Virus record (IMG/VR): IMGVR_UViG_3300042482_001246
Origin: a virus
Lineage: Duplodnaviria; Heunggongvirae; Uroviricota; Caudoviricetes
Reading direction: 5' to 3' (one strand)
Length of the DNA: 19,899 bases
Part shown: positions 830-19,897 of the stretch, one piece after another
Layout: every line of letters begins with the position of its first letter
Position numbering within the stretch: the stretch's first letter is position 1
Notes under the pieces: generated by a model
Told to the model about the DNA's origin: nothing
The model's input: the letters and a program-made list of their open reading frames with translations, nothing else
Databases searched by the model: none
Program-made: the position numbers and the translations under genes

Positions 830-3800
830 TAGTTACACTCAGTTATTGTTGATGGGGTTATGGAAATAATTCCGTCTACGATTGAAGTTACAGTATCGTT
901 TAGGTTTGTTGAAGGACATATGTCACAAGTTGTAACAGTATATGTTTTACTAGCAGATGTCTGACCTTGTGGTATACTAATAACCAAATTGGTGGTACCA
1001 TTTCCTAAACAGTCACTAGTTGATAACTCAATTGTTACCGTAACATTTGTAGGTGCCGGATATGGTGTTCCACCATTTCTTAGTGTAACCGTTACCTGAT
1101 TATCTTGTCTTGTATATCCACCACATTGGTCAGGTAAACCTGTTCTAAATATAGATTCGGATAATGTAACACATAACGCCAATGGTGACGGTGTTGGTGT
1201 TAAACCAGGTGTTTTAGTAACACCAGGTGTTTGAGTTATCAATACCACAGGGTTCGCTAAACAATCAACACAATTAGCATAAATGGTTGGTTTATTTAAA
1301 TTGAAATAATTTCCTGTGAAGTAAGTTAAAATTGTTTGACCTGCAGGGTAGTAATTCAAGAATTGTCCAACATAAGTCCAACATTCACCATTTACAGTTT
1401 GGAATGTTTGTCCTGTCATAATAGCAAAATTCGTAGGTTGAGTTTGCATTATTGTGGACTGAGGATAGTTAGACTGATTCAATGCACAAGTTTGGAATAC
1501 ATAAACAAAGTCTGCCGGTGATGCGGTAGGTGTCATAGTTGGGCTTGGAGTTATAGTTGGTGTCGGTGTGTTTGATGCTGTAACACTTGGTGTAGGTGTC
1601 AATGTGAATCTACAATCAGTGCAGTTAGCATAAAGTTGAACAATAGAATTAAGAACCGAGTTTGGTTGTGTATTACTATCGTTTCTATCATATGTTAAAC
1701 AGAATAGGTCACCATTCACGTATCCGCCAAAAGTTGTTCCAATTGAAATAGGTATTCCGTTAAATGTTAATGTGTCGGATACATAGAACTCAAGATTACT
1801 ATCACAATCTTTAAGAACTTTAGATGTTGGGCAAGTAAACGCCTCTTCAAAGAATGTATAAACTAATTGTCCACCAACTTCAACTGTTCTCGTAGGACTA
1901 ATCGTAGGAGTCAATGTTGGCGATGGTGTTGTTGGTGTATAAGCTGAGAATGAGAATGACATATCACCAGCACAAGTAGATGTTGACGGTGTTGGGGTTG
2001 GAGTTGATGGAATAGATGTAACACTAAATGTTACATTATCACAAGTAATCGATGGTGTTGGTGTTGGGAATGGTACAAAATCACAATCAAAATATGCCGT
2101 AAAATCTAAAGTGTTACAATTTACCGAAGAAGGTGTTGGTGTAGGACAAGGTCCTGTTGAGAAGTAATTAGACGATATGTCGGGACATATTGAATAACAA
2201 GGGTATGTCCCCTCTAATAAACAAGTTCCACCTAAAGAATTACTTAAACACCAAACATCACCAGTATGATAGATGTAACCTGTGGTGATACCGTCTCCTG
2301 TATAGTAGAGTCTTGAATTGTATGTTCCAGCAACTTCAAAATTACCACTATAACCTGAAAGGGTTGGATAGTTTGTTCTAAAACAAAATTCTGTGTATGG
2401 ACAAGAACTTGGTGTTGATGAAACTGTTGGTGTATTTGTTGGTGTTGGGTTTGGTGTTGGGGTTGGTGTAGGTGTTAAAACACAACTACTACAATCGCTA
2501 TATGATGGAACACCTAATGAAGGTCCACCTGGTCCTGAGAATTCAACAAATGAATAACAACTACCATTGTAAAGATATGTTGCACCCACAAAAGCAGTGT
2601 CAGTGTCAACTAAGGCGTAAAATATGGTACCATCACTACACTTAGTTAACAATGCAGAATCTTGAGGTCCTGTTCCTGTCGCAGTTGGCGTAGGTGTTGG
2701 TGTTCCTGTTGAAGTACTTGTTGGTGTTTGAGTTGGTGTCGGGGTGTTAGTCGCTGTTTGGCTATTGGTTGGTGTTACTGTAGGTGTTTGGCTATTGGTT
2801 GGTGTTACTGTAGGTGTTGGTGTCACACAAGGAACCGATATCAAACAAGTTGCACAATCGACTTGTAATGTGAACACAACTCCAACTGAGGAATAAAGAT
2901 TACCAACAGCTGAATATGGAACCACAGTTCCACAACCATTATATCCTGAACCACCAATTATACTATAAACCTGCCCAACTGTTAAAGTTCCTGGAACGTT
3001 TTCATATCGGTAATAATTACCGTAACAACAATCTTGAAATAAATAAATGTCATACGGTTCAGTTGACGTTGGTGTCGGTGTAGGGGTAGTTGTTGTGGTA
3101 TTTGTGGGTGTTTGAGTCGGAGTAGTTGTTGTGGTATTTGTAGGTGTTTGAGTTGGAGTATTAGTTGCCGTATTTGTAGGTGTTTGAGTCGGAGTATTAG
3201 TTGCCGTATTTGTAGGTGTTTGAGTCGGAGTAGTTGTTGTGGTATTTGTAGGTGTTTGAGTTGGAGTATTAGTTGCCGTATTTGTAGGTGTTTGAGTCGG
3301 AGTAGTTGTTGTGGTATTTGTAGGTGTTTGAGTTGGAGTATTAGTTGCCGTATTAGTTGGTGTTGGCGTTTGGCTTGCTGTTTGTGTAGGAGTTTGTGTC
3401 AATAATGACATACTACAACTTTCACAGTCACCATAAAGTATTTTACTAGCAGGTGTGTCGTCAGGTGTATTATAACTTAAACCATTATATGTATAACACC
3501 CATTTGGGACAATCGAGTTTTGAAAAACTATGTAGAAAACATCAAAAGGTGTTGGTAAACTTGGTCCCCAATCAATAGTATATGTTACAAACGTATCACA
3601 ATTAGTGATTGATACTATCGTATAACCTTCTGTTGGTGTTGGTGTCGGAGTGGGTGTATTAGTTGATGTCGGAGTTGGTGTTGCAGTTGGACATACAATT
3701 TCTTCTGTAGATAAACAAGACGCACAATTCGTACCCACACCATAAGAAGTAAACCCATCTAAAGGATAACTCCAATTGTATGTTGAGTATGTGTCAGGTT

Positions 3801-4209
3801 GTACAATTACTGTATAACAAGTATTTTCGGGATTAGACCCACCAGGACTATTAAGTGATAAATAAACAACCTCACCTAAAGTCCAAGATATAACACTGCC
3901 AGTATTAATCCTCCAATTAGCCCCACCACAACAAGGTTCCAAGTAATATTCAACATCAGAACAATATTCTACAGATGTTATTTGTCCTCCACCGCCAGTT
4001 ATAACATAAATAATTGTCCCATCATTTGGGTCTTGGTAAAACCCATCACTTGCAACTAAAGGACCACAAGTTAATCCATCGTATAAGATAGTCCCAACTT
4101 GTAACACGGGAGTTATACCATCATCAAATGAAAATGAATCTATAAGTGGTGCAGTGCACGCAGTTACTTTAGAAGTTAAACTGTAATTTAAGGTAAGACC
4201 ACTACACAT
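829..4209 (-). CDS. 1126-aa modular Cys-rich / Thr-Pro-rich putative virion surface protein
   Basis: Long ORF. Six ~60-80 aa modules ending in CxxC are separated by (TP)n linkers. No catalytic motif recognised. Coupled to the downstream gene via TAATG. Confidence 0.85.
3088..3339 (-). repeat. 7 x 36-nt coding tandem repeat ([12 protein letters not shown] / [12 protein letters not shown])
   Basis: Two unit types in the order A-B-A-B-B-A-A; near-identical at DNA level. Confidence 0.95.
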
Positions 4210-4303: not shown

Positions 4304-4543
4304 ATGGTAGTTTATTCTATAATAAAGGTGTTGTTTGTAATATTTATAATTGTGAGACTAATAAAAACAATTAAGAAGGTTATTGAAGAGGCGGAGGACA
4401 GATATCTCTCAGCTTGTGATAATGGTGTGTCTTTAGAAGAATTGGATAAGTTAGAGGAAAATTATAAAAAATCCTTAAAGCTTATGAATATGTTAGAGTC
4501 AAAAAAACTCAACGAGGACACTCAGAAAAATAAGAAATTATAA
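4304..4543 (+). CDS. Small hypothetical protein (charged helical C-terminal part); true start may be GTG at 4352
   Basis: 79-aa ORF filling the gap between two minus-strand units. Its stop overlaps the kinase stop by 6 nt (convergent). TATTTATA at 4341-4348 lies just before the GTG at 4352. Confidence 0.6.
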   Translation: MVVYSIIKVLFVIFIIVRLIKTIKKVIEEAEDRYLSACDNGVSLEELDKLEENYKKSLKLMNMLESKKLNEDTQKNKKL

Positions 4544-5323
4544 CCCTCTCAAATATTCTGTATATTTCTTATCAGGTAAGGAAACACCCTTTTTATTTAC
4601 CACGTCAGAACAGACTTCATTCGCAAATAATATTGAACTTTTAATGTCATTTGTTTTAATAAAATGTGACACAAATGAAGCGACAAATGTATCACCAGCC
4701 CCACTAACATCAATAGTTTCTTGAGGTTTGGGTGAACCGAAAACCTGTCCCATATACATCGCACCTTTGGACCCTAAAGTCACAATAAATTTTTCATCGT
4801 GGTTATCAACAATTTCTTTATTATATGAATATTCAACCTCGTTTTGTTTAGTAAATGTAATATTACCGATAACATTTTCATTTAATTTTTTCTTGGTGTC
4901 CAAAATAGATATTTTTGATAAAACCCCAATTTGATTAATTAAATTTTCACTTACATAACCTTTATTATAGTCACTTATTATTACAATGTCAGATTCGGTA
5001 ATAGTTTTTCTTTGGTCAGGCGATAAAAATAATATTGTATCACAAGGTTCAAGTTCACCATCATCAACTCTTGTAATCATTTGATTACTTTTCTTTTCAA
5101 CATAACGAGTCTTTTCGATTTTGTTTAATTGATGCCAATGTAATACTTCACTATCAGGTAATAATGTTCTTAAATTTTCTACAACATTTCCCGCCATACC
5201 ATTGTTGGTTGTTGAATATAACGGATTTAAAACAGGGACTGGTGCCTCAGGACACAATCTCTTAATATCACAATACACAAATCGGTCAACACACAGTTCA
5301 CCTATCACTAAAATCTTTGCCAT
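4538..5323 (-). CDS. hldA: D-glycero-D-manno-heptose-7-phosphate kinase (stand-alone RfaE/HldE domain I, PfkB family)
   Basis: ILVIGELCVDRFVY..KRLCPEAPVPV matches the RfaE-I N-terminus; also KTRY, IISDYNKG, and the PfkB signature DVSGAGDTF. Confidence 0.88.
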   Translation of the reverse strand: MAKILVIGELCVDRFVYCDIKRLCPEAPVPVLNPLYSTTNNGMAGNVVENLRTLLPDSEVLHWHQLNKIEKTRYVEKKSNQMITRVDDGELEPCDTILFLSPDQRKTITESDIVIISDYNKGYVSENLINQIGVLSKISILDTKKKLNENVIGNITFTKQNEVEYSYNKEIVDNHDEKFIVTLGSKGAMYMGQVFGSPKPQETIDVSGAGDTFVASFVSHFIKTNDIKSSILFANEVCSDVVNKKGVSLPDKKYTEYLRGL

Positions 5324-5723
5324 AATTAATTATTTTTGTTGACGAATAACCGTCTAATTTATCGAAGTAAATTATATTTTTTGCGTTGTCCCCACCAATC
5401 ACTTTTTTATCTTTGTAATCAGAACCCACAACTAATATGTCGGTTTCCCAATTTAAAATGTGTTGTGATAAGTCAAAGTCACAATCAAAACTAACAACAC
5501 TTTCAACCCCATTTATTCTTGATAACTGATACATTCTATCAAGACAAGAATTGACAGGTCTTTGATTTCCTTTGAGTTCTTTAACTCTTCTATCGGTGTC
5601 AACACCAACCCTAAGTACACCTAAAGATGATGCGTATTCCAACATCTCTAAGTGACCTCTGTGTAAGACATCAAAGGTCCCATTAACCCAAACTTTTAAT
5701 GGTTCAGACTGTCTCCTCTCCAT
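5298..5723 (-). CDS. hldC: Heptose-1-phosphate nucleotidyltransferase (stand-alone RfaE/HldE domain II, cytidylyltransferase superfamily)
   Basis: NGTFDVLHRGH (HxGH), VGVDTD..VKELKG..RPVN, LVVGSDY, C-terminal GYSST; adjacent to the kinase. Confidence 0.85.
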   Translation of the reverse strand: MERRQSEPLKVWVNGTFDVLHRGHLEMLEYASSLGVLRVGVDTDRRVKELKGNQRPVNSCLDRMYQLSRINGVESVVSFDCDFDLSQHILNWETDILVVGSDYKDKKVIGGDNAKNIIYFDKLDGYSSTKIINYGKDFSDR

Positions 5724-6841: not shown

Positions 6842-6842
6842 A

Positions 6843-7664
6843 CTATTGTTCTAAATAATTTTTATAATCTTTAATACCCATCTCAAGGTTCCAAGTAGGT
6901 TTCCACCCACCCATCCATTTATTTGAGTCGCTACAAGTATAAAACTGATATCCAACAGGTATTTTATCCTCGTCAGTGTATTCGTATTTAATCCCCATAT
7001 TGTCCAAGACATCTTCAAAACCTCTCGCCTCTCCAAAACCAACTTCGTAATATTTTCCTTTCAATCTTTGGTAATTTCCGAGGGCAAATAAATTTGCAGA
7101 AACAACGTCCTTCACATATACAAAATCTCTTTGTGGTTTTTTAGGGAACAATAAAATTTCTTTACCTGTCCAAGCCCTCAAATGCATTTGATATGCAACT
7201 GAAGCCATTTTACCTTTTTGGTCTTCACCAGGTCCGTAAACATTAAAATATCTTAACGCAACCCCTCCATTTGAAATAACATATCCTTCGCCAGCGTATT
7301 TACTCCATCCGTATAGATTTGAAGGGTATTCATTATTAATACCATAATTTGCTGCTGATGATGAATAAATCATCGGACAATCATTTTCTTTACACCAATC
7401 CATAATGATTTTTGTTGACTCGTAATTTCTTGTCATCATATAATCAACATCTTGTTCTAAAGTATCCGAACAGGCACCTACGTGAAAAACAACATCAGGA
7501 TTAATTTCATTTAACTGTATTAACAATACTTTTGTCCAATTTTCTTGTGAAAAATAACTTTCATCTAAACCGTAGACATCATACCCATTCTTTTTTAATT
7601 CATTTAATAGTGAGCGACCAATGAATCCTTTGTGTCCTGTAACAATAACTTTTTTCATATACAT
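6843..7664 (-). CDS. hldD: ADP-L-glycero-D-manno-heptose-6-epimerase (extended SDR)
   Basis: IVTGHKGFIG, FHVGACSDT, NYESTK, YSSSAANYG, YGWSK (YxxxK), LRYFNVYGPGE..KGKMASV, RDFVYVKDV: HldD/RfaD-specific segments. Start is ATG 7664 or 7658. Confidence 0.88.
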   Translation of the reverse strand: MYMKKVIVTGHKGFIGRSLLNELKKNGYDVYGLDESYFSQENWTKVLLIQLNEINPDVVFHVGACSDTLEQDVDYMMTRNYESTKIIMDWCKENDCPMIYSSSAANYGINNEYPSNLYGWSKYAGEGYVISNGGVALRYFNVYGPGEDQKGKMASVAYQMHLRAWTGKEILLFPKKPQRDFVYVKDVVSANLFALGNYQRLKGKYYEVGFGEARGFEDVLDNMGIKYEYTDEDKIPVGYQFYTCSDSNKWMGGWKPTWNLEMGIKDYKNYLEQ

Positions 7665-7692
7665 TTGAATTATTACAATAATAAATTACCTT
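7665..7692 (+). promoter_or_regulatory. Possible sigma70-like promoter for the SET gene
   Basis: TTGAAT-N16-TACCTT, the same geometry as the pair at 14850-14882. AT-rich DNA makes a chance match plausible. Confidence 0.25.
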
Positions 7693-7710
7693 TGAATAAA
7701 AGAATATAGT

Positions 7711-8112: not shown

Positions 8113-8128
8113 TTTTTTATTTGGGTTA

Positions 8129-9109
8129 TTAATAACCCAAATAAATTAAATTTCTATCAATATCTTTAAATAAATTTGATAAATCATACTCACCATTATT
8201 ATCTACCATCGATATACTTTTAACAGATAAAGAGTCTAAACCAATATCAATAATTTTATTTTTATTCAATTGATATTCTTTAACCACACCGTCAACATTA
8301 ATTTTAATATTTTGTGATTCAAGAAAATCATAAAAATAAAATCTAAGATTAGATGAGACATCTTTTTCAACTTTTTCGTCACCTTCAGATACCCAACAAG
8401 TTGTTGGTTGGTTTTTACTAATATACATTTTATAATTAGGATTCATAGAATAATTGAAAAATCCTCTGTCACCCCAATAATATATTTTATCTCTCACGGG
8501 TGTTTTAGATATATTAATTGGGAATAATTGTGTCCACAACAACGCCTGTCCTTCAGCAACTCCATCCCATTTTAAATAATCATCTAATTTTATGACATCA
8601 ACAATCTTACTCATTATTTCTCTATCAAATATCATAAAATGTAATGTACAATCCCACCAATCATCTTCTTTGTTTGGGTTTATTCTTGGGTGAACTAAAT
8701 TAGTTACGTCAGATTTTATTGTATCAATAACATATTGGTCTATCTCCAAATCATATATTATATGATAAAAATAATCGTAATCATAACTGAGAGCAATTTG
8801 ACTCATTTTCTTTATTTGATATAACCCAGCCCAACCATAATCCGCAACATTTCTATGCATAGTTATCCAACCCTCACTTGAATAATGTGTCTGCCAAAAT
8901 GTAAAACCTCGTAAAGGCCAATTTAATAATGGATTTTCTTTAGTGAAAAACACAAAATCAGAAATTTCTATAATTTCATTAGGTAATGTTATTGGACTAA
9001 TCACTAAAGTATCTAATCCTAAACTTTTCAACACTTTAATGTTTTCACTTAAAATGTTAATTTTTTCTTGTGTATCGCAATAAGAACTTATTAAAACTAT
9101 TTTTTTCAT
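8129..9109 (-). CDS. Uncharacterised putative glycosyltransferase-like protein (paralog of 12641-13627)
   Basis: Shares the N-terminal LI[ST][SA]YC, F[FY][TD]K[EK]N.LL.W and HI[IE]YD segments with 12641-13627. The GT call rests on the hhxYD (DxD-like) position and on context. Confidence 0.5.
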   Translation of the reverse strand: MKKIVLISSYCDTQEKINILSENIKVLKSLGLDTLVISPITLPNEIIEISDFVFFTKENPLLNWPLRGFTFWQTHYSSEGWITMHRNVADYGWAGLYQIKKMSQIALSYDYDYFYHIIYDLEIDQYVIDTIKSDVTNLVHPRINPNKEDDWWDCTLHFMIFDREIMSKIVDVIKLDDYLKWDGVAEGQALLWTQLFPINISKTPVRDKIYYWGDRGFFNYSMNPNYKMYISKNQPTTCWVSEGDEKVEKDVSSNLRFYFYDFLESQNIKINVDGVVKEYQLNKNKIIDIGLDSLSVKSISMVDNNGEYDLSNLFKDIDRNLIYLGY

Positions 9110-11250
9110 AACATTTCTTTGAATCTATACTCTCTATCTTTTTCTTTAATTTCTTCAACATCCATTTTAGTTAAAATTATACAATTTTTAAAATAAGTTA
9201 TTGAAGATATTAGGTTATTATTTCTCATTCCACTAAACTCGGAATTAATTTTATGGGGTACCGTTGAAAAGTAATCAACAACATTGTGATTTCCAACCTC
9301 ATATCCATATATGGTATTTTTCGGATTCCAATAATTACATTCAATATCTTCAATAATATAGATACCACCATTTTTTAACATTTTATCAAATAAAAAATTA
9401 AAGGTGTTGATTTGGTGTTCAGGTACATGGCTACCATCATCAATTATTATATCACATTCTCCAATAAGATTTATCATTTTTTGTAAATCATCTTCATTAT
9501 TTTGGTCGCCTTTGAATACAGTTCCATTATCGGTAACTTTTTCTTCATTAATATCCATTGAGAAGATTTGTCCGTTGTGAAAATATTCTTTCCACAAGTT
9601 GAAAGATGCATAATCTGACCCACATCCTATTTCAAATAGTTTAACTTTGGTTTCTCTTAAACCACTTAAAAATTTATCATAAATCTTGTCAAACCTATGA
9701 TGAATAACTTTATCAGTATTATGTTTCAAACCAAGTGAAAAAATATTGTTATTTCTTACCAAGACAAGATTATTATCGTTGTGTGTCCAAGCCAAACTTA
9801 TAAGTTCAAACGAAAAATTTTTATACTTATTTCTTAGTTTGGGTATCTCTTTTTCCCAACTACCTAAATCAGATTCACAAATATCCTCAATAATATAATA
9901 ACCACCTGAACTTAATCTATCTAATGAATTTTCTAAAAAAAATAAATTATATTTGAATTCGTGTAAACCGTCGTCAATAATAATATCCATTTTTTCACCA
10001 ATTTCTAACCATAAATTTTTTATATCAGAAATTGACGTTTCATCACAATAAAACGTTTTAATTCTTTCCTCTTCAAATAAAGTATTTTTATCTATATCGG
10101 CACCATATATCTTAGCTCGAGTAAAATATTCTTTCCAACCTCTAAGAGAAGCCCCAGGAGTACCCATATTACCCATATTGTAAGGTATCAAAACATTATT
10201 GGTTCCAATACCTAATTCAAAAATTTTTATTTCTTTATCTCTAATACTTTCAAAAAGTTGTGAATATAATCTAGTATAATTGTGACCACCAAAATCAACC
10301 CAATCAGGTTTACTAGCTTTATCACTCTTGTGTTTATCCATGATAGAACACAACTCTGTTCTTTCATCAATTACGACTTGTTTGATTTCTTTGGGTGAAA
10401 TAACTAAATCAACTAAATGGTCAATAACATCTTTAAATTTACTATAAGGTCTACAACAATTTACATCTATGTAATAACCATTTTTTAATTTTTCTTCATC
10501 ATAAATTCCAAATTTTTTTTGATTTTCTTTCTCACCTTCAAATTCTAATTCAACAGGAAAATTATGTCTTTCGATTCTTCTATTCGCAATCCATGGACTA
10601 GTGTAACCTCTTTTTAATTTATGAACTTCAATACCATGATTTTTATTATTCACACAATCAGAAAAATAAAATTCATCAATCATCCACATATATCTATAAC
10701 CTGGTTTATAATTTCCATGTCTATTTACAAAATCTTCAAAACTACAATCAGTATCCAATATTTTATTAAATACCTTTCCTTTAGCGGCGTTATATGGATA
10801 ATTATACATTTCTTGAGTAAATGGAAAAGGTTCAGTTTCAAAAAGTTTTTTTGCTTCTAACCTATTTAAATCATAAGCATCACTTGAGTAAATTACTAAA
10901 CTATTATCACTGAAGTTTTTAATTTGATTTATAAAATATTCTTTATTAATCATTAACATGTCTAAATCACATGTTAAACAAACCTCGTCAGGAAAATACT
11001 TTGTCCCATACATTCTAGCAATACATGCTAATAAACCTGTATGAACAACATTACCTGTAATGTGGTCGTTAACTTTTTTAATTTTTTTTACTAAACCATT
11101 ACCATCATAATAAAAGTCACTTTCTTCATCACATATAAAAAAAAGTACAGGTTCTATTTCTAAAATCTCTTTACAAATTTTAGCTTGGATAGGCCAAAAC
11201 TCCAAAAAATATGAGTCGTCGACCCCAAATATTGCTTTATCTATTTTCAT
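9106..11250 (-). CDS. Fusion: GT-like domain (aa ~1-285) plus two tandem class I SAM O-methyltransferase domains (MycE/OleY-like)
   Basis: The N-domain has TCDLDML (DxD) and is paralogous to 11262-12098. MT1: HNY..Y, IFELGIG, GASLRGWKEYF, DIIIDDGLH, GGYYIIED. MT2: IFEIGCG-like LFEIGCG, ASFNLWKEYF, GDQ, DIIIDDGSH, GGIYIIED. Confidence 0.8.
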   Translation of the reverse strand: MKIDKAIFGVDDSYFLEFWPIQAKICKEILEIEPVLFFICDEESDFYYDGNGLVKKIKKVNDHITGNVVHTGLLACIARMYGTKYFPDEVCLTCDLDMLMINKEYFINQIKNFSDNSLVIYSSDAYDLNRLEAKKLFETEPFPFTQEMYNYPYNAAKGKVFNKILDTDCSFEDFVNRHGNYKPGYRYMWMIDEFYFSDCVNNKNHGIEVHKLKRGYTSPWIANRRIERHNFPVELEFEGEKENQKKFGIYDEEKLKNGYYIDVNCCRPYSKFKDVIDHLVDLVISPKEIKQVVIDERTELCSIMDKHKSDKASKPDWVDFGGHNYTRLYSQLFESIRDKEIKIFELGIGTNNVLIPYNMGNMGTPGASLRGWKEYFTRAKIYGADIDKNTLFEEERIKTFYCDETSISDIKNLWLEIGEKMDIIIDDGLHEFKYNLFFLENSLDRLSSGGYYIIEDICESDLGSWEKEIPKLRNKYKNFSFELISLAWTHNDNNLVLVRNNNIFSLGLKHNTDKVIHHRFDKIYDKFLSGLRETKVKLFEIGCGSDYASFNLWKEYFHNGQIFSMDINEEKVTDNGTVFKGDQNNEDDLQKMINLIGECDIIIDDGSHVPEHQINTFNFLFDKMLKNGGIYIIEDIECNYWNPKNTIYGYEVGNHNVVDYFSTVPHKINSEFSGMRNNNLISSITYFKNCIILTKMDVEEIKEKDREYRFKEML

Positions 11251-11261
11251 AATTATTTTTT

Positions 11262-12098
11262 TTATTTAGGGTTTGTTATGGACAATGCGATTTCAACTAA
11301 ATTGTCAATAACTTTTTTATATTCAATATATGGTCTTGGACAATGAGCATCAATATAATATCCATTTTTAAGTTTTTCCCAATCAAACACGCCATCGTTT
11401 AATTGAGCCGTAATCTCTAAATTATTATTTAATATTACGGGAAAATTATGTCTGTTAATTCTTTTTTCCGCTTTCCATGGAGAAGAATACCCTCTCTTAA
11501 ATTTATGAACTTCAACACCATGAATATTTTCATTAACATTTTGACCAAAATAAATTTCATCAGTTCCCCACCCTAATTTCAACACTCCCAATTCATGAGC
11601 GTATTGACTGAATGGTCTATCAGTATCTAAAATTTTATTAAAAGTTGAACCTTTTCCAATATTGTAACAAATTGGGTATCTATTTTCACAAGGTTCATTA
11701 TGATTTTGGCACTCTGGTCTTTCTAATGAGTATGCATCTTCATCTAAAATCACCAAAGAATTATCATCAATATCTTTAATTTTATCAATAAACCAATCTC
11801 TGTTTATAATAATCATATCAATGTCATTGGTCATGCAAACATCATTTGGAAAATATTTTGTTCCATACATTCTAACAATTTGACTTAAAAACGAAGTGAT
11901 AATACCTGGACAATTATTTCTATTTATTTTTTTTACAATTCCATTACCATCATCATAAAAATCACTATCTTCATTTGTAATATGAAATAATACGGGTTGA
12001 GCATTAAATAATTTTTTAATTATTTTTGATTGGATTGGCCAAAAATTTTGGTATAATGGATTGTCATCCACACCAAAAATTACTTTATCTATCTTCAT
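11262..12098 (-). CDS. Putative glycosyltransferase-like protein, paralog of the N-domain of 9106-11250
   Basis: [32 protein letters not shown] (DxD), [17 protein letters not shown] are shared with the downstream gene. Confidence 0.6.
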
Positions 12099-12639
12099 AA
12101 AATTTTTCTATAAATTCATCAATGTTGTTTGACCACATAGTCATCGCATTATCTTTAATTTTTTGTTCATCCCAATTCCACCAAGCAATAGATAATAATT
12201 TTTTAATTTGCTCGTCACTAAACCTATACTTAACAACTTTGGCTGGATTACCAGCAACAATCGCATATGGTGGTACGTCTTTACTTACAACAGAACCAGC
12301 CGCAACTATCGCTCCGTTACCAATTCTAACTCCTGACATTATAGTTGCTGTTGCCCCAATCCAAACATCATTTTCAATTATAATATCTCCTTTACAAGAT
12401 GGATGTCCCATATCCATATGCATCTGAGCAATCTCATTAGTTACAGGACCCCACAGTTGGGATGATGTTGTAACCCAATCGGGTCTATGATTTGCGTGTA
12501 GAAAAAAATTACAGTCTCTACCTATTGAATTGTACTTACCAATCCTTACGTGGTATTGGTCACTCCAAGAAATTATGTTTACGTGTCTGTCAAAATAGGT
12601 TCCCCTGTCTGCGTGCCAAAGATGTATGTTTTCTATCAT
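12085..12639 (-). CDS. CatB/Vat-related hexapeptide-repeat O-acetyltransferase
   Basis: [61 protein letters not shown], and the Xat-type tail AWWNW. Confidence 0.9.
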
Positions 12640-12640
12640 A

Positions 12641-13627
12641 TTATTCGTTTACTCTAAAACTCATTAGTTTAAAAATTTCCCTGTCTTCATCGGATTTTAA
12701 ATAAAATGTATCCCTTATCACATCATTCTCTAACACAATAATGGAATTAATTTCTTCAAGTTTACCTAAGAAAACAATATTCCAATGATAATGATGGACT
12801 AATGGTATGTGAACTAATTTTGAACCATTAATAATAATTTTATATTCCAAACCATTTTTATTAGTTGTATTCCATGATATGAAATCAACATTACCTGTTA
12901 AATGGTCGTAATACGGTAAAGACCATGGGTTTTTATTTATTGATTGACTATTAATAACACCAAAAAAATTACCTTTTTCTTCTAAAACATTTCTGTTTTT
13001 AACAACAACACTACCTGAGTCTTCAATTAACTTAAGTAATAAACCTTCAGGTGATTTTGATATTGCACCTCTAATTAAATCTTTAATTTTATCTTCATCC
13101 AATTCAATTAACATTGAATGTATTTTTGGGATATAGTATGATTGAAAACTACCGAACATTACTTCCGCAACTTTATCTTGGATGTCCATATAAACCACTG
13201 CACTATTTGTTTCTAATAAATCACTGTTTTCAACAAACTCGGATATTTCATTGATTTGACAATCATACTCTATATGGTGAACTTTAGTAAACCCTAAGTT
13301 TTTAGCATTACTAAAACCTAAAATCATTAATCTCCATATAGCTAAGTGAGTGTTTTTTTTACTTAGAAAAGATGATTGGATTCTTCTGTTTCCTTCAGGT
13401 ACAAACCAAGGTTGGTTTAATAAATCCCAATCAGTTAATATTTCATTTTTCTTATCATAGAATGAAAATTCTACTTTATTTTGAATATCAATCGGTACTG
13501 GTGTATGACTAACAATCATTACCTCAAAATAATCTTTATATTTTTCTAATGAAGAAACTAAATTCCTTAAAATATTTTCTCTATTATCATCAGGACAATA
13601 CGCGGTAATTAAAATCAAATCTTTCAT
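12641..13627 (-). CDS. Uncharacterised putative glycosyltransferase-like protein (paralog of 8129-9109)
   Basis: [21 protein letters not shown] and HHIEYD are shared with 8129-9109; lies inside the operon. Confidence 0.5.
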
Positions 13628-14205
13628 TATTTAATATTTTTTGTGGGAACACCTCCATATACACCAGGTGATTCAATATGTTTGACAACCGCACTATTCA
13701 TACCAATTGTTACCAAACTATGTATTGATAATTTTTCTCGGATTGAGGAATTATTACCCATATAAACAAGGTCGTATATTTTTACATTACCAGACACAAT
13801 TGCACCTGGCATTGCACTAAAGTAATCACCAATTTCACAATCGTGACCAATATGGTTACCTCTATTTAAAATTGCGTGTTTACCTATTTTTATATTTGTA
13901 GTTAGTATTGAATATGCACCAACAAAACTACCTTCTCCGATTTCAATGTTGTTATCCATAATTAACACTGTTGGATGAACCCAAGTAAAATATTTAGTCT
14001 CCTTGGGTAGTCTTTGGATAATATCAAATCTATCTCTTGAATCTGCAACCGCAACCATTATCGCATATTCTTTGGGGTTAAACTCAGATAGTGGTCTTGT
14101 TCCTTCTACAACATATTTGTCATCAACAAAACAAGTCAATTCCACCCCCATTTGAGCCATCACCTCTTTAGCGTGACCACCATATCCAACTAATGCTTTT
14201 TTCAT
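13627..14205 (-). CDS. PglD/NeuD-like sugar acetyltransferase
   Basis: GYGGHAKEV, VAVAD..R, VHP, hexapeptide repeats, NHIGHDC (catalytic His region), GVPTK. Confidence 0.9.
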   Translation of the reverse strand: MKKALVGYGGHAKEVMAQMGVELTCFVDDKYVVEGTRPLSEFNPKEYAIMVAVADSRDRFDIIQRLPKETKYFTWVHPTVLIMDNNIEIGEGSFVGAYSILTTNIKIGKHAILNRGNHIGHDCEIGDYFSAMPGAIVSGNVKIYDLVYMGNNSSIREKLSIHSLVTIGMNSAVVKHIESPGVYGGVPTKNIK

Positions 14206-14846
14206 TGTTTATAAACGTCAAATTTAGATAAGTCAGGATATGGTAATTCTAAATCCTGATTATGTTTTTTCGAACCGTCAATATTATAAAACTGATTCAT
14301 CAACAGCATCCCTCTTGCCGCCAACTCAGGCATCATATAAAAGTTCCAACCAATCATATCCAAGTAATCATCGTGATATGAACATTCTCTTCTTCCACTA
14401 TAACGAGCTCTCTTAAACCAATGATAAGCATCCAAACTATCCGTCAAAATTGCACCACCCTTACTAAGTTTAAAATGTTTATAAGGTCCAGTAAAAGAAA
14501 CACAAATGTGTTGGTCAGGTTTATACATATCGGCAGTAAAACTTAGTGCTGAGTCCCAAACATTACTTCCTTTTAGTTGGTACATACCTTTAATTGTTTT
14601 ACCCTCAACAGGTTCAAAATCAACCTTTAGCCCTGCGTGAATAATCTCACAAGGAACCGATGGGTATGTTCTACAAGGAATTGTTATCTTATCTGAAGTA
14701 ATACTTTTCTTAACATTTTTTTCATAATATAACGCCAAGAACAAAGCGTTACTCATATTATCGAGAGTCACCACATACGGAGCTCCCGTATAATCTGCAA
14801 GTGCCTTCTCGAAATCTTCTGTAATTTTATAAATACCGTTTGCCAT
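14202..14846 (-). CDS. Short DegT/DnrJ/EryC1/StrS-family PLP sugar aminotransferase
   Basis: FEKALADYTGAPY, SNALFLAL, TYPSV, WDSA (PLP Asp), SF..YKH....GGAILTD (PLP Lys), GWNFYM; only 214 aa. Confidence 0.85.
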   Translation of the reverse strand: MANGIYKITEDFEKALADYTGAPYVVTLDNMSNALFLALYYEKNVKKSITSDKITIPCRTYPSVPCEIIHAGLKVDFEPVEGKTIKGMYQLKGSNVWDSALSFTADMYKPDQHICVSFTGPYKHFKLSKGGAILTDSLDAYHWFKRARYSGRRECSYHDDYLDMIGWNFYMMPELAARGMLLMNQFYNIDGSKKHNQDLELPYPDLSKFDVYKQ

Positions 14847-14902: not shown

Positions 14903-17194
14903 ATGGAAAAACCAAAAATTTATCTTCACGGTTCTTATATTGGAACAACAGGTTACAATAACCACACTCGTGATTTTTTAAGAGAATTAGTTAAACACAC
15001 ACCTGTTAAGGTTAGAAACTTTACTGTTGGTAGCACTTGGGATGGTTATAATCCAACCCCCCACGATAACGAACCATACATTAATGATGTTGATAAATCA
15101 ATGTTGTATAAACAAATTTTATACAACTCTGAAGGTAAGTTATCAGATTACGATATCTACCCTGACAAATCAAAAGAGTTTTTTCCTGATGTGAATATTG
15201 TATTGAGTGAGACTAATCACCATATATTCTATCACGATTATATTGGTCCAAAGATTGCTTATAACGTATGGGAATCTACTCTTCAACCTAAAGAGTTTTT
15301 CAATGAACTTTTGAAATACGATGAGATTTGGGTTCCGAGTAAATGGCAAATGGAATGTACCATCAACCAAGGTGCAACCCCTGATAAAGTTAAGGTGGTC
15401 CCTGAGGGTGTCGATATCCATACATTCTTCCCTGAAGATGTTGAGAAATTGGAACAATACAATGATGGTAGATTTAAATTCTTATTATTTGGTCGATGGG
15501 ATTATAGAAAATCAACCAAGGAGATTATTGAAACTTTCTTGAAAACATTTTCTTCGGATGAACCTGTGGATTTGGTTGTATCGATTGACAATATGTGGGG
15601 TGAAGAGATGGATGGTTATAAAACCACCGAAGAAAGATTGGTAGGTTATGGTTTAACAGACCCAAGAATCAAAATGATTCACTTCCCAACTCGTGAGGAT
15701 TATATCAAATACCTTAAAACAGGACACGTATTTGTTTCTTGCGCACGTTCTGAAGGATGGAATCTACCTCTTATTGAAGCGATGGCTTGTGGTACCCCAT
15801 CTATTTATTCAGAGTGTTCTGCTCAAATGGAGTTTGCTGAAGGTAGAGGTATTCCTGTTAAGATTATAGGTGAAAAACTTGCAAGCGCAAATGACTACGG
15901 TAGATATACAATGAGTGATTTACCAGGAAACTATTACGAACCTGATTTTGTGGACTTGTCAAGACAGATGAGATATACGTATGAGAACTATAAAGAATGT
16001 AAATTAAAAGCCGTTCAAGACTCAATAGAAATTCATAAAGAATTCTCTTGGGAACGAATTGGTGAGATTGGTTACAAAACAGTTGTTGATTTTATGAAAA
16101 ATTATAAATCCACTGATGCGGATACCAATAAAATTATGGTTTCATATCTTGATGGTCCAAAAGTTGAAATTGTGGGTGCTGAAGACAGAACTTATTTAAT
16201 TGAGTTTTTGGATGAAAATGATGCTGTAATTCATTCACATACAATGAAAAATAATCATTGGGTTCAATGTGGTAGAAAATATTACACCAAATGGAAAATC
16301 CGTGTTAATGGTAAAATTGTTGAGGAGTTAGATTTAACAGGAAAAAGAGTTTTAATCTCTTTTGAATCAAAATCAATTGGTGATACAATTGCTTGGGCAC
16401 CTTACGCTGTTGAGTTTCAAAAGAAACATAACTGCCAAGTTATTCTAAGCACATTTCATAACAAATGGTTTAAACAAAACCCTAACTATCAGGATATTGA
16501 ATTTATCGAACCTGGTATGGTCACAAATTGTCACGCACTTTATAGGATTGGTTGGATTAAATCTGACGAAGGTAAGTGGAACAAATATGATTCTTACCCT
16601 AACCCGATTCAAACTTTACCATTACAACAAACTGCAACAGACATCCTTGGTTTAAATTATGTTGAAAGAAACTACGGTTTATACTTTGATGTTAAACCGA
16701 GAACAATCAAAAACAAATATGTTGTTTTAGCCCCCGAGTCGACTGCAGGTTGTAAAGAATGGACTTATGAAGGGTGGTGTTATTTGACAGACCAATTAAT
16801 TAAAAAAGGTTATGAAGTCGTCATTTTAACAACAAAACCATATCAAGTAAAAGGTGCAAAATGTATTCACGGTAAACCATTAAACGACGCTCTTAATATC
16901 CTTTATCATTCAGAATTCTTGGTTTCGCCAAGTTCAGGTATGGCTTGGATGAATTGGGGTGTTGGTAAACACACTGTAATGATTAGTGGATTTACACCTA
17001 AACATCACGAGTTCCAAACTAATATTACAAGAATTATTAATGAACATTCTTGTAACTCTTGTTGGGCAAATATCAACTTTAAGTTTGACCCAGGAGATTG
17101 GGATTGGTGTCCAATTTGGAAAGGTACCGAAAAACAACACATTTGTGAAAAATCAATTTCGCCACTAACAGTTCTTAATAGTTTACCAATATGA
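14903..17194 (+). CDS. GT4 glycosyltransferase fused to a TibC/AAH (BAHT)-family protein O-heptosyltransferase
   Basis: N-half: GRWDYRKS and SEGWNLPLIEAMACG (GT4 Ex7E, E284/E292). C-half from ~16128: LDGPKVEI, YYTKWKI, GKRVLISFESKSIGDTIAW, KEW, SSGMAW, VMISGFT...EF, and CNSC-x15-C-x11-C (C717/720/736/748). Confidence 0.85.
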   Translation: MEKPKIYLHGSYIGTTGYNNHTRDFLRELVKHTPVKVRNFTVGSTWDGYNPTPHDNEPYINDVDKSMLYKQILYNSEGKLSDYDIYPDKSKEFFPDVNIVLSETNHHIFYHDYIGPKIAYNVWESTLQPKEFFNELLKYDEIWVPSKWQMECTINQGATPDKVKVVPEGVDIHTFFPEDVEKLEQYNDGRFKFLLFGRWDYRKSTKEIIETFLKTFSSDEPVDLVVSIDNMWGEEMDGYKTTEERLVGYGLTDPRIKMIHFPTREDYIKYLKTGHVFVSCARSEGWNLPLIEAMACGTPSIYSECSAQMEFAEGRGIPVKIIGEKLASANDYGRYTMSDLPGNYYEPDFVDLSRQMRYTYENYKECKLKAVQDSIEIHKEFSWERIGEIGYKTVVDFMKNYKSTDADTNKIMVSYLDGPKVEIVGAEDRTYLIEFLDENDAVIHSHTMKNNHWVQCGRKYYTKWKIRVNGKIVEELDLTGKRVLISFESKSIGDTIAWAPYAVEFQKKHNCQVILSTFHNKWFKQNPNYQDIEFIEPGMVTNCHALYRIGWIKSDEGKWNKYDSYPNPIQTLPLQQTATDILGLNYVERNYGLYFDVKPRTIKNKYVVLAPESTAGCKEWTYEGWCYLTDQLIKKGYEVVILTTKPYQVKGAKCIHGKPLNDALNILYHSEFLVSPSSGMAWMNWGVGKHTVMISGFTPKHHEFQTNITRIINEHSCNSCWANINFKFDPGDWDWCPIWKGTEKQHICEKSISPLTVLNSLPI

Positions 17195-17977: not shown

Positions 17978-19897
17978 TTATTCCTGTATCGGTTTGTATT
18001 CTAACAGAACCTTTGGAACATCCTTACGTTCTGCGAAGACTGTGTAGAAACAATTTGGAGTTCCATCTTGACAGTTGATGTAAACCTTATTGTTTTCAAT
18101 CTTCTCAACCCAATGAACACAAGGTCCTCCGATTGGTGTGAGTTGGACTGACCAATCTGTGTCGTGAACAAGTCCTACCCAATAATCAGGGAGTTCAATC
18201 ACTTTACTTGTTGCGTGTCCTCTGAAATAAACTCCATGTTCTGGACCTTCCAAGTTTCCATATCTTAATCTCCACCCTTCTTTAGTTGGGTGAGGGATGT
18301 CGAACGATTTACTGTTTGCAGATATATTATTAAAGTTATTGATGTTTGCAACACCACCACCTTGGATGTTACCAACCGCAGCACTCATGTCAATATCACC
18401 ACCAACAAGGACAATATTACCACCCGCAACTTCAACATTTCCACCATTGGTATCAATGGTTCCACCGCCAGTGTCAATTCCACCTCCCGTAGTACTCAAG
18501 GTCGTACCGTCCCACGTTAAGTTGGTTTCTGCATTTAATTCACCCGCGGTGTTACTACCTGTAATAACTCTATTATCAGCGTTATTGTTGATAGTTGCTG
18601 CTCCTGAAGTACCCGATGAACCACTTGAGCCAGATGTTCCTGATGAACCTGAAGTACCACTTGAGCCAGATGTTCCTGATGAACCTGAAGTTCCACTTGA
18701 ACCTGATTTACCTGAAGAACCTGAGCTTCCGCTAGTTCCTGAAGAACCACTTGAGCCAGATGTTCCTGAAGAACCACTTGAACCTGATGTTCCTGAACTT
18801 CCTGAAGTACCAGATGAACCTGATGTTCCCGAACTTCCTGAAGTACCGCTTGAACCACTTGAGCCAGATGTTCCTGAACTTCCTGAAGTACCGCTTGAAC
18901 CTGATGTTCCCGAACTTCCGCTAGTTCCTGATGAACCACTTGAGCCAGATGTTCCTGAACTTCCTGAAGTACCAGATGAACCTGATTTACCTGAAGAACC
19001 TGAGCTACCACTAGTTCCTGAAGAACCACTTGAGCCAGATGTTCCCGATGAACCACTTGTTCCACTTGAACCTGAACTTCCGCTTGTTCCTGAAGAACCA
19101 CTTGAACCTGAAGTACCAGATGAACCTGATGTACCTGATGAACCACTTGAACCGCTAGTTCCTGAAGAACCTGATGTACCTGATGAACCTGAGCTTCCGC
19201 TAGTTCCTGATGAACCTGAGCTACCTGATGTACCAGAACTTCCTGAAGTACCAGATGAACCTGAAGAACCACTTGTTCCACTTGAACCTGATGTACCACT
19301 TGAACCTGAGCTTCCGCTAGTTCCTGATGAACCACTTGAGCCAGATGTTCCCGAACTTCCTGAAGTACCAGATGAACCTGAAGTACCACTTGAACCTGAA
19401 GAACCGCTAGTTCCTGATGAACCTGAAGTACCACTTGAACCTGAAGTACCACTTGAACCTGAGCTTCCGCTAGTTCCTGATGAACCACTTGAGCCAGATG
19501 TTCCTGAAGAACCTGAAGTACCACTTGAGCCAGATGTTCCTGATGAACCTGATTTACCACTTGAACCAGAACTTCCTGAAGTACCACTTGAACCTGAAGA
19601 ACCGCTAGTTCCTGATGAACCTGAAGTACCACTTGAACCAGATGTTCCTGAAGAACCTGAAGTACCGCTTGAACCAGAACTTCCTGAAGTACCAGATGAA
19701 CCTGAGCTTCCGCTAGTTCCTGAAGAACCTGAAGTACCACTTGAGCCAGATGTTCCTGACGAACCTGAACTTCCGCTAGTTCCTGATGAACCACTTGAGC
19801 CAGATGTTCCCGAACTTCCTGAAGTACCGCTTGAACCAGATGTTCCTGAAGAACCTGAAGAACCTGAAGTACCGCTTGAACCAGAACTTCCTGAAGT
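17978..19897 (-). CDS. Putative tail/surface fibre protein: (G-S/T-S)n shaft plus phage fibre C-terminal domain; 5' end is outside the window
   Basis: The track ORF 17978-18499 (TTG start) is only the tail. The frame stays open upstream: ...SGTSGAATINNNADNRVITGSNTAGELNAETNLTWDGTTLSTTGGG... At least 639 aa. The C-terminus SKSFDIPHPTKEGWRLRYGNLEGPE..YFRG..IELPDYW..SVQLTPIG..FAERKDV is a type I recall from phage fibre proteins. Confidence 0.85.
   Translation of the reverse strand, partial: TSGSSGSSGTSGSSGSSGTSGSSGTSGSSGTSGSSGSSGTSGSSGSSGTSGSSGTSGSSGTSGSSGSSGTSGSSGSSGTSGSSGTSGSSGTSGSSGTSGSSGSSGTSGSSGSSGKSGSSGTSGSSGTSGSSGTSGSSGSSGTSGSSGSSGTSGSSGTSGSSGTSGSSGSSGTSGSSGTSGSSGTSGSSGSSGTSGSSGSSGTSGSSGTSGSSGSSGTSGSSGTSGSSGSSGTSGSSGSSGTSGSSGTSGSSGSSGTSGSSGTSGSSGSSGTSGSSGSSGTSGSSGTSGSSGSSGTSGSSGSSGKSGSSGTSGSSGTSGSSGSSGTSGSSGTSGSSGTSGSSGTSGSSGSSGTSGSSGTSGSSGTSGSSGTSGSSGSSGTSGSSGSSGTSGSSGSSGKSGSSGTSGSSGTSGSSGTSGSSGTSGSSGSSGTSGAATINNNADNRVITGSNTAGELNAETNLTWDGTTLSTTGGGIDTGGGTIDTNGGNVEVAGGNIVLVGGDIDMSAAVGNIQGGGVANINNFNNISANSKSFDIPHPTKEGWRLRYGNLEGPEHGVYFRGHATSKVIELPDYWVGLVHDTDWSVQLTPIGGPCVHWVEKIENNKVYINCQDGTPNCFYTVFAERKDVPKVLLEYKPIQE

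What the first reader, a model, noticed from the sequence alone, without database searches (positions are those of the whole stretch)
14903..17194. GT4-BAHT fusion with an intact tetra-cysteine iron motif
The C-half has the S-x-G-D motif (D494, the position of the catalytic base in GT9/BAHT enzymes) and C717-x2-C720-x15-C736-x11-C748. From memory this matches the spacing of the ferric-iron Cys ligands of TibC. Characterised BAHTs are stand-alone ring-forming dodecamers. Fusion to a retaining GT4 suggests a two-step enzyme (heptose onto Ser/Thr, then a second sugar onto the heptose), or a ring carrying additional GT4 sites.
Basis: partly seen in the sequence, partly recalled or inferred. Interest (0 to 1): 0.8.

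Follow-up and report, generated by a model that had tools for sequence, protein, structure and literature searches.

The report
Phage GT4–TibC-like protein heptosyltransferase fusion
A large uncultured phage encodes a two-part sugar-adding enzyme whose second half is a true relative of the E. coli adhesin-glycosylating enzymes TibC/Aah; it most likely coats the phage's own proline-free, serine/threonine-packed collagen-like fibre with heptose-based sugars, but no experiment has tested this.

Summary
ORF 14903-17194 (+), 763 aa, is a GT4 domain (EX7E E284/E292 intact) fused to a full TibC/Aah-type unit. That unit scores 221.7 bits on TIGR04414 (cut-off 200), E 5.5e-38 to TibC and fold TM 0.80. 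D494 sits at the TibC Asp110 position. C717/C720/C736/C748 have exactly the spacing of the TibC iron ligands.

- The window is phage DNA.
- The fusion is common: 2528 hits, and the GT4 is always N-terminal of the TibC-like unit.
- The beta-hairpin thumb that builds the TibC dodecamer is deleted, so a TibC-type ring is unlikely.
- TibC's adenine-contacting Arg286 is not conserved.
- Kinase-, adenylyltransferase- and epimerase-like genes of the ADP-heptose pathway lie 7-10 kb away.
- Proline-free Gly-Ser/Thr-Ser collagen-like genes accompany the enzyme in every record I could read far enough.
- In the reverse test, 8 of 10 large phage contigs chosen only for such repeats carry a TIGR04414-level domain.

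Best reading: virion O-heptosylation of the collagen-like fibre, then extension by GT4 and O-methylation.

This scan has already noted the same architecture on other DNA (about 100 notes, at least 80 genomes) with the same reading. I found no paper on it.

The parts
14903..17194 (+). GT4-BAHT fusion gene, 763 aa. Its stop overlaps the start of the next gene (ATGA).
14903..16087 (+). N-terminal GT4 (retaining GT-B) domain, aa 1-395
   Evidence: Pfam PF00534/PF13692. phrog_2170 glycosyltransferase, E 8.6e-28 over aa 14-388. Foldseek finds GT4 enzymes: 3OY2, MshA, HepE, PimA, SdgB.
15752..15778 (+). EX7E motif, E284...E292
   Evidence: Seen in the sequence. Invariant in alignment A1.
16124..16342 (+). 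TibC-type N-terminal beta-barrel, aa 408-480
   Evidence: The alignment starts at TibC residue 17. The model has strands 410-475.
16382..16384 (+). Asp494, equivalent to the TibC catalytic base Asp110
   Evidence: Kept in 152 of 152 related domains.
16742..16756 (+). Thr614 and Lys618, equivalent to the TibC beta-phosphate ligands Thr226 and Lys230
16832..16864 (+). Site of the missing beta-hairpin thumb. TibC residues 264-272, including Phe265/Val266, have no counterpart here.
16889..16891 (+). Ala663, at the position of the TibC adenine-contacting Arg286. Not conserved.
16931..16948 (+). Ser677 at the position of TibC Pro300 / AAH residue 294, and Trp682, equivalent to TibC Trp305
17051..17146 (+). 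Cys4 'iron finger': C717-x2-C720-x15-C736-x11-C748
17191..17937 (+). FkbM-family methyltransferase, translationally coupled to the fusion gene. In other phages it is fused into the same polypeptide.
17978..19897 (-). Candidate acceptor: a collagen-like protein whose 5' end runs off the window. It has 144 uninterrupted Gly-Ser/Thr-Ser triplets, no Pro, and a conserved C-terminal domain.
4538..5323 (-). HldE-kinase-like gene (heptose-7-phosphate kinase domain)
   Evidence: TIGR02198, E 2.7e-32, best hit but below cut-off
5298..5723 (-). HldE-adenylyltransferase-like gene
   Evidence: TIGR02199, E 1.1e-24, best hit but below cut-off
6843..7664 (-). HldD-like ADP-heptose 6-epimerase
   Evidence: TIGR02197, E 5.4e-57, 193 bits against a cut-off of 274.6
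8129..14846 (-). Rest of the glycan island: orphan GT-like paralogues, methyltransferases, two hexapeptide acetyltransferases (one NeuD/PglB/VioB type) and a short DegT-like protein
   Evidence: Conserved with the fusion gene in L002-L013, L067, L074 and L081.
2..4209 (-). Two Cys-module proteins with long (Thr-Pro)n linkers, alternative O-glycosylation acceptors

Best explanation
The gene is phage-borne and encodes a bifunctional protein O-glycosyltransferase.

Shown:
- The C-terminal unit is a member of the Aah/TibC (BAHT) sequence family. It has the N-terminal beta-barrel, the GT-B core, the Asp base, three of the four sugar-nucleotide ligands and the Cys4 metal site.
- It lacks the ring-forming thumb.
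- The N-terminal unit is an intact GT4.

Inferred:
- The BAHT unit transfers heptose from ADP-heptose to Ser/Thr hydroxyls of the phage's own proline-free Gly-Ser/Thr-Ser collagen-like fibre. Other Ser/Thr-rich virion proteins may also be acceptors.
- In this phage the donor is boosted by its own HldE-kinase-like, HldE-adenylyltransferase-like and HldD-like genes. Ser677 at the TibC Pro300 position would allow L,D-heptose.
- The GT4 unit then adds a second sugar, probably onto the heptose. The coupled FkbM enzyme O-methylates the glycan. The rest of the island supplies and attaches further modified sugars.
- Without the thumb the enzyme probably works as a monomer or small oligomer along an extended fibre, not as a TibC-type dodecameric ring. 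The Cys4 site then serves fold or acceptor binding rather than ring assembly.
For: Family and residues:
- Searches support the domain calls and conserved residues. TibC residue roles come from PMC4358343.

Phage origin:
- 79 IMG/VR loci hold relatives.
- A relative's gene sits among UvsX, DnaB, gp46/47-like and terminase genes.
- The nearest UvsX sequences are from uncultured huge phages.

Donor supply:
- The three neighbouring genes each have their best NCBIfam hit in the ADP-heptose pathway.
- The same trio occurs in 89%-identical relatives, and unlinked in a record whose fusion protein is 59% identical to this one.

Acceptor, forward test:
- An S/T-type collagen-like ORF ends about 70 nt upstream of the gene on the same strand in 10 loci from 3 clusters.
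- It lies convergent 0.8 kb downstream in the window's cluster.
- It was found in all five further records read beyond the 10-kb flanks (G002, G003, G006, G007, G008). These include four ORFs in G003 and a 3469-aa ORF with 1045 triplets in complete G002.

Acceptor, reverse test:
- Of 10 large contigs chosen only by a (GGN WSN WSN)x12 scan, 8 carry a TIGR04414-level domain. That includes 4 of the 4 that are at least 90% complete. The same search found it in 0 of 14 control genomes.
- Those domains are only 30-53% identical to each other and to this one, so the link is not confined to a single close lineage.

Two-step logic:
- A GT4 domain sits N-terminal of the BAHT unit in 38 of 150 representatives and in 6 of the 8 reverse-test proteins. 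FkbM is fused in 28 of 150.

Cultured example:
- Microcystis phage Mel-JY01 has a GT4-FkbM-BAHT CDS scoring 317 bits on TIGR04414.
- That CDS lies 1.7 kb downstream of an unannotated open frame with 202 Gly-Thr/Ser-Ser triplets.
Against: - No glycan, iron content or enzyme activity has been measured for any phage member.
- TibC Arg286, which contacts the adenine and whose Ala mutant abolished or greatly reduced activity, is Ala663 here and variable across the family. The nucleotide part of the donor is therefore not secured.
- The Hld-like genes score below their equivalog cut-offs. GmhA was not found in five related records; GmhB was not searched for.
- The Hld trio is absent from the complete 176-kb relative G002.
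- Co-occurrence with collagen-like genes is guilt by association. Two of the 10 reverse-test contigs (77% and 84% complete) had no hit.
- Whether Gly-Ser/Thr-Ser repeats form a collagen triple helix is unknown.
- The order of the two transferase steps is pure inference.
- The relative orientation of the two domains in the model is uncertain (pTM 0.59).
Confidence: 0.6

Rival explanations
1. The enzyme glycosylates other phage proteins rather than the collagen-like fibre. Candidates are the (Thr-Pro)n mucin-like linkers of the Cys-module proteins at 2-4209, or capsid and tail proteins as in mycobacteriophages.
For: Two proteins with long Thr-Pro tracts lie in the same window. Such linkers are classic O-glycosylation sites (general knowledge). 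Virion glycosylation of capsid and tail-tube C-termini is reported for mycobacteriophages (cited in PMC12619734).
Against: (Thr-Pro)n proteins were not seen in the other loci. S/T-type collagen-like ORFs recur with the enzyme across BAHT domains only 30-53% identical, in both the forward and reverse tests.
Confidence: 0.15
2. The enzyme is host-directed. It remodels host LPS core or host surface proteins during infection (receptor masking or superinfection exclusion), like LPS genes carried by some cyanophages.
For: The fold is GT9-like, with a weak PF01075 match at 20.3 bits. The island makes nucleotide sugars that could equally feed envelope glycans.
Against: The protein scores 221.7 bits on the Aah/TibC model against 19 bits on LPS heptosyltransferase I. 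It keeps the TibC-specific beta-barrel and Cys4 insertion. The gene sits in the fibre and structural block, and it co-occurs tightly with one class of fibre gene.
Confidence: 0.1
3. One reading: the protein forms a TibC-like dodecameric ring with twelve GT4 domains on its rim.
For: The Cys4 motif, which in TibC supports back-to-back dimers and ring integrity, is fully conserved.
Against: TibC F265D and V266D mutants are dimers and inactive. The G636-S678 segment is 41 aa here against 51 aa in autotransporter-linked enzymes, and 79 of 156 domains aligned share the short form. The model has no hairpin at that site.
Confidence: 0.1
4. The C-half has kept the BAHT fold but uses a different donor (another nucleotide or another sugar), or the enzymes glycosylate phage DNA.
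For: Arg286 of TibC, which reads the adenine, is Ala here and variable in the family. Phage glycosyltransferases that hypermodify DNA are known (cited in PMC12619734).
Against: Thr614, Lys618 and Trp682, the TibC ligands of the beta-phosphate and heptose O4, are conserved in 146-152 of 152 domains. The phage carries ADP-heptose pathway genes. No base-hypermodification genes were seen in the window.
Confidence: 0.08

Closest known systems
TibC (ETEC H10407; PDB 4RAP/4RB4) and Aah/AAH, the bacterial autotransporter heptosyltransferases (BAHT family, TIGR04414)
   Same: Same sequence family: above the curated cut-off, E 5.5e-38, TM 0.80. It shares the N-terminal beta-barrel, the GT-B core and the catalytic Asp. 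It also shares the Thr/Lys/Trp donor ligands and a Cys4 iron finger with identical spacing. Like TibC/Aah, the gene lies beside a repeat-rich Ser/Thr protein.
   Different: It is phage-borne and fused behind a GT4 domain. The beta-hairpin thumb needed for the dodecamer is deleted, and Arg286 is not conserved. Ser occupies the Pro300 position. There is no autotransporter; the candidate acceptor is a Gly-Ser/Thr-Ser collagen-like fibre rather than a beta-helix of 19-residue repeats.
LPS core heptosyltransferases WaaC/WaaF/WaaQ (GT9)
   Same: GT-B fold, ADP-heptose donor chemistry and a catalytic Asp at the equivalent position (structural comparison in PMC4358343).
   Different: Only marginal sequence scores: PF01075 at 20.3 bits (cut-off 22) and TIGR02193 at 19 bits (cut-off 185). 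They have no beta-barrel and no Cys4 insertion, and their acceptor is a lipid-linked glycan.
Mycobacteriophage virion glycosylation (Freeman et al. 2023, as cited in PMC12619734)
   Same: Phage-encoded glycosyltransferases that decorate the phage's own structural proteins.
   Different: The enzymes and acceptors are unrelated (capsid and tail-tube C-termini). No heptose, BAHT domain or collagen-like acceptor is involved.
Glycosylated collagen-like proteins: Bacillus anthracis BclA (Thr-rich GXT repeats) and Mimivirus collagen-modifying enzymes (from my own knowledge, not checked here)
   Same: Collagen-like Gly-X-Y repeats whose hydroxy-amino acids carry O-glycans. The modifying enzymes are encoded by the same genome.
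   Different: Different transferase families and sugars. Those repeats contain Pro or Lys/Hyl, whereas here both the X and Y positions are Ser/Thr.

Membership tests
BAHT (Aah/TibC, TIGR04414) | Score above the curated equivalog cut-off | tested here: met
   221.7 bits against a cut-off of 200, residues 408-759
BAHT (Aah/TibC, TIGR04414) | Catalytic base Asp (TibC Asp110) | tested here: met
   Asp494 aligns with it. Kept in 152 of 152 relatives.
BAHT (Aah/TibC, TIGR04414) | Donor ligands Thr226, Lys230 and Trp305 | tested here: met
   Thr614, Lys618 and Trp682
BAHT (Aah/TibC, TIGR04414) | Adenine-contacting Arg286 | tested here: not met
   Ala663 here. The column is T/R/V/A/I/L across 152 relatives.
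BAHT (Aah/TibC, TIGR04414) | Four-Cys iron finger, C-x2-C-x15-C-x11-C | tested here: met
   C717/720/736/748 match TibC C339/342/358/370. Metal binding itself cannot be tested with these tools.
BAHT (Aah/TibC, TIGR04414) | N-terminal flattened beta-barrel | tested here: met
   The alignment starts at TibC residue 17. The model has strands 410-475. TMt is 0.80.
BAHT (Aah/TibC, TIGR04414) | Beta-hairpin thumb with a hydrophobic tip (Phe265/Val266) | tested here: not met
   9-residue gap in the pairwise alignment. 15-column gap against three autotransporter-linked enzymes. Loop class of 41 aa against 51 aa.
BAHT (Aah/TibC, TIGR04414) | Dodecameric ring | not testable with these tools
   It can only be inferred to be unlikely from the missing thumb.
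BAHT (Aah/TibC, TIGR04414) | Adjacent AIDA/TibA-type autotransporter substrate | tested here: not met
   No autotransporter in the window. The bacterial members fetched for comparison have one immediately downstream.
BAHT (Aah/TibC, TIGR04414) | ADP-heptose:protein Ser/Thr O-heptosyltransferase activity | not testable with these tools
   Context only: Hld-like genes and Ser/Thr fibres.
GT4 (retaining GT-B glycosyltransferases) | Pfam Glycos_transf_1 above the gathering score, EX7E motif and GT-B fold | tested here: met
   38.5 bits against 26.4. E284/E292 are invariant. Foldseek finds GT4 enzymes.
GT9 LPS heptosyltransferases (WaaC/WaaF) | Score above the family cut-offs | tested here: not met
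   PF01075 at 20.3 bits against 22. TIGR02193 at 19.1 bits against 185.3.

The most novel reading that the evidence does not exclude
Thousands of aquatic phages may build fibres from proline-free Gly-Ser/Thr-Ser 'collagen'. The shaft would be made foldable and protease- or receptor-proof by near-stoichiometric O-heptosylation, with the sugar taking the role of hydroxyproline. The enzyme would be a thumb-less, non-ring branch of the TibC/Aah family working as an assembly line with fused GT4 and methyltransferase modules. Some phages would carry their own ADP-heptose pathway to pay for it.
Probability: 0.35. Interest if true: 0.8.

Novelty: new variant of a known kind. Interest (0 to 1): 0.65.

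Why it matters
BAHT enzymes are known only as stand-alone, ring-forming virulence-associated enzymes that heptosylate autotransporter adhesins in a few Proteobacteria. This work shows three things:
- Most of the family's sequence diversity sits in multi-domain proteins, many of them demonstrably in phage contigs. Only 17 of the 150 nearest cluster representatives are of stand-alone size.
- A large branch has lost the ring-forming element.
- The constant genomic partner is an odd, proline-free collagen-like fibre.

If confirmed, this would be:
- a new and widespread kind of virion glycosylation;
- a new acceptor class for protein heptosylation;
- a natural test of how sugars stabilise collagen-like helices;
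- a source of compact two-step protein glyco-engineering enzymes.

A cultured system, Microcystis phage Mel-JY01, appears to carry both the enzyme and the repeat gene, so the idea can be tested directly.

Tried and rejected
- Complex prediction on two copies of the C-half (alignment A3) returned 'no answer' (score 0.00). It says nothing either way about dimer formation.
- No whole genome is held for the window, so GmhA could only be sought in related viral records. It was not found in five of them. GmhB was not searched for.
- Literature searches for phage BAHTs, Mel-JY01 and glycosylated collagen-like phage fibres found no relevant study. The 'moraphage' paper (PMC12619734) mentions only four core glycosyltransferase groups. 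I could not tell whether the window belongs to that lineage.
- First pass on context: in about 9 of 29 clusters the nearest collagen-like ORF was Pro-rich, which looked like evidence against an S/T-collagen acceptor. Reading further upstream in four such records (three clusters) showed S/T-type ORFs just beyond the 10-kb flank, so I dropped that objection.
- Mel-JY01's first 16 kb showed no Hld-like genes at E 1e-5.
- The weak Pfam 'GT4-conflict' match (19 bits, below cut-off) was not pursued.
Full report
**What is there**

The window is low-GC, about 26-44% in 1-kb windows, and densely packed with genes. ORF 14903-17194 (+) encodes 763 aa.

The N-half is a GT4 glycosyltransferase.
- Pfam PF00534 matches at 38.5 bits against a cut-off of 26.4.
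- phrog_2170 matches over residues 14-388.
- The EX7E motif (E284/E292) and the G197/R198/K203 phosphate-binding motif are intact. They are invariant in 33 homologues of 55-93% identity.

The C-half is a member of the Aah/TibC family by sequence and fold.
- TIGR04414 scores 221.7 bits, above its curated cut-off of 200.
- TibC (4RAP) matches at E 5.5e-38 over TibC residues 17-376.
- An AlphaFold2 model (mean pLDDT 84.8, pTM 0.59) matches TibC at TMt 0.80, E 1.7e-26.
- LPS heptosyltransferase models reach only about 19-20 bits.

**Residue-level check against the TibC paper (PMC4358343)**

| TibC residue(s) | Role in TibC | Here | Conservation |
|---|---|---|---|
| Cys339/342/358/370 | Ferric-iron ligands, spacing x2, x15, x11 | C717/720/736/748, same spacing, same columns | Each Cys kept in 144-145 of 152 related domains |
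| Asp110 | Catalytic base | Asp494 | 152 of 152 |
| Thr226, Lys230 | Beta-phosphate ligands | Thr614, Lys618 | 146 and 150 of 152 |
| Trp305 | Heptose O4 ligand | Trp682 | 152 of 152 |

Two differences matter.

First, Arg286, which contacts the adenine, is Ala663 here and variable across the family.

Second, the beta-hairpin thumb is missing.
Mutating it gives inactive dimers.
- There is a 9-residue gap in the pairwise alignment.
- There is a 15-column gap against three autotransporter-linked enzymes, which all carry G-F/M-V-W-N-H-I-P.
- The G636-S678 segment is 41 aa here against 51 aa in those enzymes. Among the 156 domains aligned, 79 share the short form, 52 have 46-48 aa and 25 have 50-55 aa.
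- The model has no hairpin between strands 638-643 and 653-656.

Ser677 occupies the position of TibC Pro300 (AAH residue 294). According to the paper, a Ser there allows use of L,D-heptose as well as D,D-heptose.

**Where it lives**

No genome is held for the window, but it is phage DNA.
- 79 IMG/VR loci encode 54-89% identical proteins.
- In a relative, the gene sits between UvsX/DnaB/gp46-47-like genes and the terminase.
- The nearest UvsX sequences are from uncultured huge phages.

The fusion is common.
- There are 2528 hits, with more than 120 clusters of 758-779 aa.
- JGI already auto-names them 'autotransporter strand-loop-strand O-heptosyltransferase'.
- UniProt holds phage entries named 'Glycosyltransferase Aah/TibC'.

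An exhaustive phmmer search with the C-half found 1323 cluster representatives. Of the best 150:
- only 17 are of stand-alone size;
- 38 carry the homologous GT4, always N-terminal of the TibC-like unit;
- 28 carry FkbM methyltransferase domains;
- 13 carry two or three TibC-like domains;
- others carry GT2, GT25, GT34-like or PIG-L domains.

**Neighbourhood**

The gene is translationally coupled to an FkbM methyltransferase (17191-17937). It sits in an island conserved in relatives. The island holds:
- a short DegT-like protein;
- a NeuD/PglB/VioB-type acetyltransferase and a second hexapeptide acetyltransferase;
- orphan GT-like paralogues;
- methyltransferases;
- a SET-domain protein.

Three genes 7-10 kb away each have their best NCBIfam hit in the ADP-heptose pathway, all below the equivalog cut-offs:
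- heptose-7-phosphate kinase, E 2.7e-32;
- heptose-1-phosphate adenylyltransferase, E 1.1e-24;
- ADP-heptose 6-epimerase, E 5.4e-57.

The trio recurs in 89%-identical relatives. It also recurs, unlinked, in a record whose fusion protein is 59% identical to this one. It is absent from a complete 176-kb relative. GmhA was not found in any of the five records searched. The pathway genes are therefore an accessory booster, not an obligate partner.

**Likely acceptor**

Convergent with the operon lies a collagen-like gene (17978-19897, −) with 144 unbroken Gly-Ser/Thr-Ser triplets and no proline.

Forward test:
- An S/T-type collagen-like ORF ends about 70 nt upstream of the fusion gene, on the same strand, in 10 loci from 3 clusters.
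- Where only Pro-rich collagen-like ORFs were visible, reading further upstream uncovered S/T-type ORFs in each of the four such records checked: G003, G006, G007 and G008.
- Complete G002, whose held flank already showed part of an S/T-type ORF, carries a 3469-aa ORF with 1045 triplets.

Reverse test:
- A pattern scan for (GGN WSN WSN)x12 returned 114 loci with S/T-type Gly-X-Y ORFs.
- Of the 10 large contigs (97-548 kb) that could be searched whole, 8 carry a domain above the TIGR04414 cut-off. This includes all 4 that are at least 90% complete. The same search found none in 14 control genomes.
- These domains are only 30-53% identical to each other and to the window's. Six of the 8 again have a GT4 domain in front.

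This is association, not proof, but it spans deep divergence.

**Mechanism proposed**

- Shown: an intact GT4 and an intact BAHT unit without the thumb.
- Inferred: the BAHT unit puts heptose on Ser/Thr of the fibre.
- Inferred: GT4 extends the glycan and FkbM methylates it.
- Inferred: the enzyme works as a monomer or small oligomer along an extended substrate rather than as a ring around a beta-helix.

Rivals considered are other virion acceptors (Thr-Pro linkers), host-directed glycosylation, a retained ring, and a changed donor.

**Cultured handle**

- Microcystis phage Mel-JY01 encodes a 1226-aa GT4-FkbM-BAHT protein scoring 317 bits on TIGR04414. It is annotated only as 'methyltransferase FkbM'.
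- An open frame at positions 2-3049 of the record holds 202 Gly-Thr/Ser-Ser triplets. The record annotates that stretch as three small hypothetical CDSs, two of them on the opposite strand.

**Status**

The scan has flagged the same architecture many times on other DNA, with the same reading by other follow-ups. These are not independent evidence. I had reached my reading before the first look-up of those notes, and the further tests were my own. I found no paper on phage BAHTs.

Noticed in passing
window 14202-14846 (-): A 214-aa DegT/PseC-like protein matches only the first ~80 residues of the ~360-aa aminotransferase profile. It is nevertheless among the most conserved island genes (77-94% identity across relatives, highest in most loci). 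It may be a truncated fold with a new role.
   Followed up: partly
window 5696-6088 (-): A cupin (phrog_7851, with a weak mannose-6-P-isomerase-like match) sits directly upstream of the two HldE-like genes, and GmhA was not found in five related records. It could replace the sedoheptulose-7-P isomerase step.
   Followed up: partly
window 7711-8112 (+): A SET-domain protein (E 2.6e-15) lies inside the glycan island and is conserved there in relatives (L002-L004, L067, L074, L081). It is a possible protein lysine methyltransferase of virion proteins.
   Followed up: no
window 8129-9109, 12641-13627, 11262-12098, 9106-11250 (-): Two pairs of family-less proteins that cross-match in tblastn: 326 aa with 328 aa, and 278 aa with the N-terminal third of the 714-aa double methyltransferase. 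They are conserved with the island and are probably unrecognised glycosyltransferases.
   Followed up: partly
L001 (PP395634.1) 2-3049 (+) and 4750-8430 (+): In cultured Microcystis phage Mel-JY01, a 1016-aa open frame with 202 Gly-Thr/Ser-Ser triplets is annotated as three small CDSs, two on the opposite strand. The GT4-FkbM-BAHT triple fusion is annotated only as 'methyltransferase FkbM'.
   Followed up: partly
G002:C1:108098-118504 (-); L102 335-8269 (+): There are giant proline-free collagen-like ORFs. One is 3469 aa with 1045 Gly-Ser/Thr-Ser triplets; another is 2645 aa with 716 triplets.
   Followed up: no
G003:C1:26443-33852 (+); L102 8292-9500: A second, unusual collagen-like class (X mostly Pro, Y mostly Ile) is encoded directly after the S/T-type genes in several phages.
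   Followed up: no
P0168 (924 aa), P0175, P0176: Some metagenomic proteins carry two to five TibC-like or GT9 domains in tandem. Each TibC-like copy in P0168 and P0175 has a thumb-length loop (50-51 aa).
   Followed up: partly
window 6089-6841 (-): A 250-aa protein with no family match lies next to the HldD-like gene in relatives (L002-L006).
   Followed up: no
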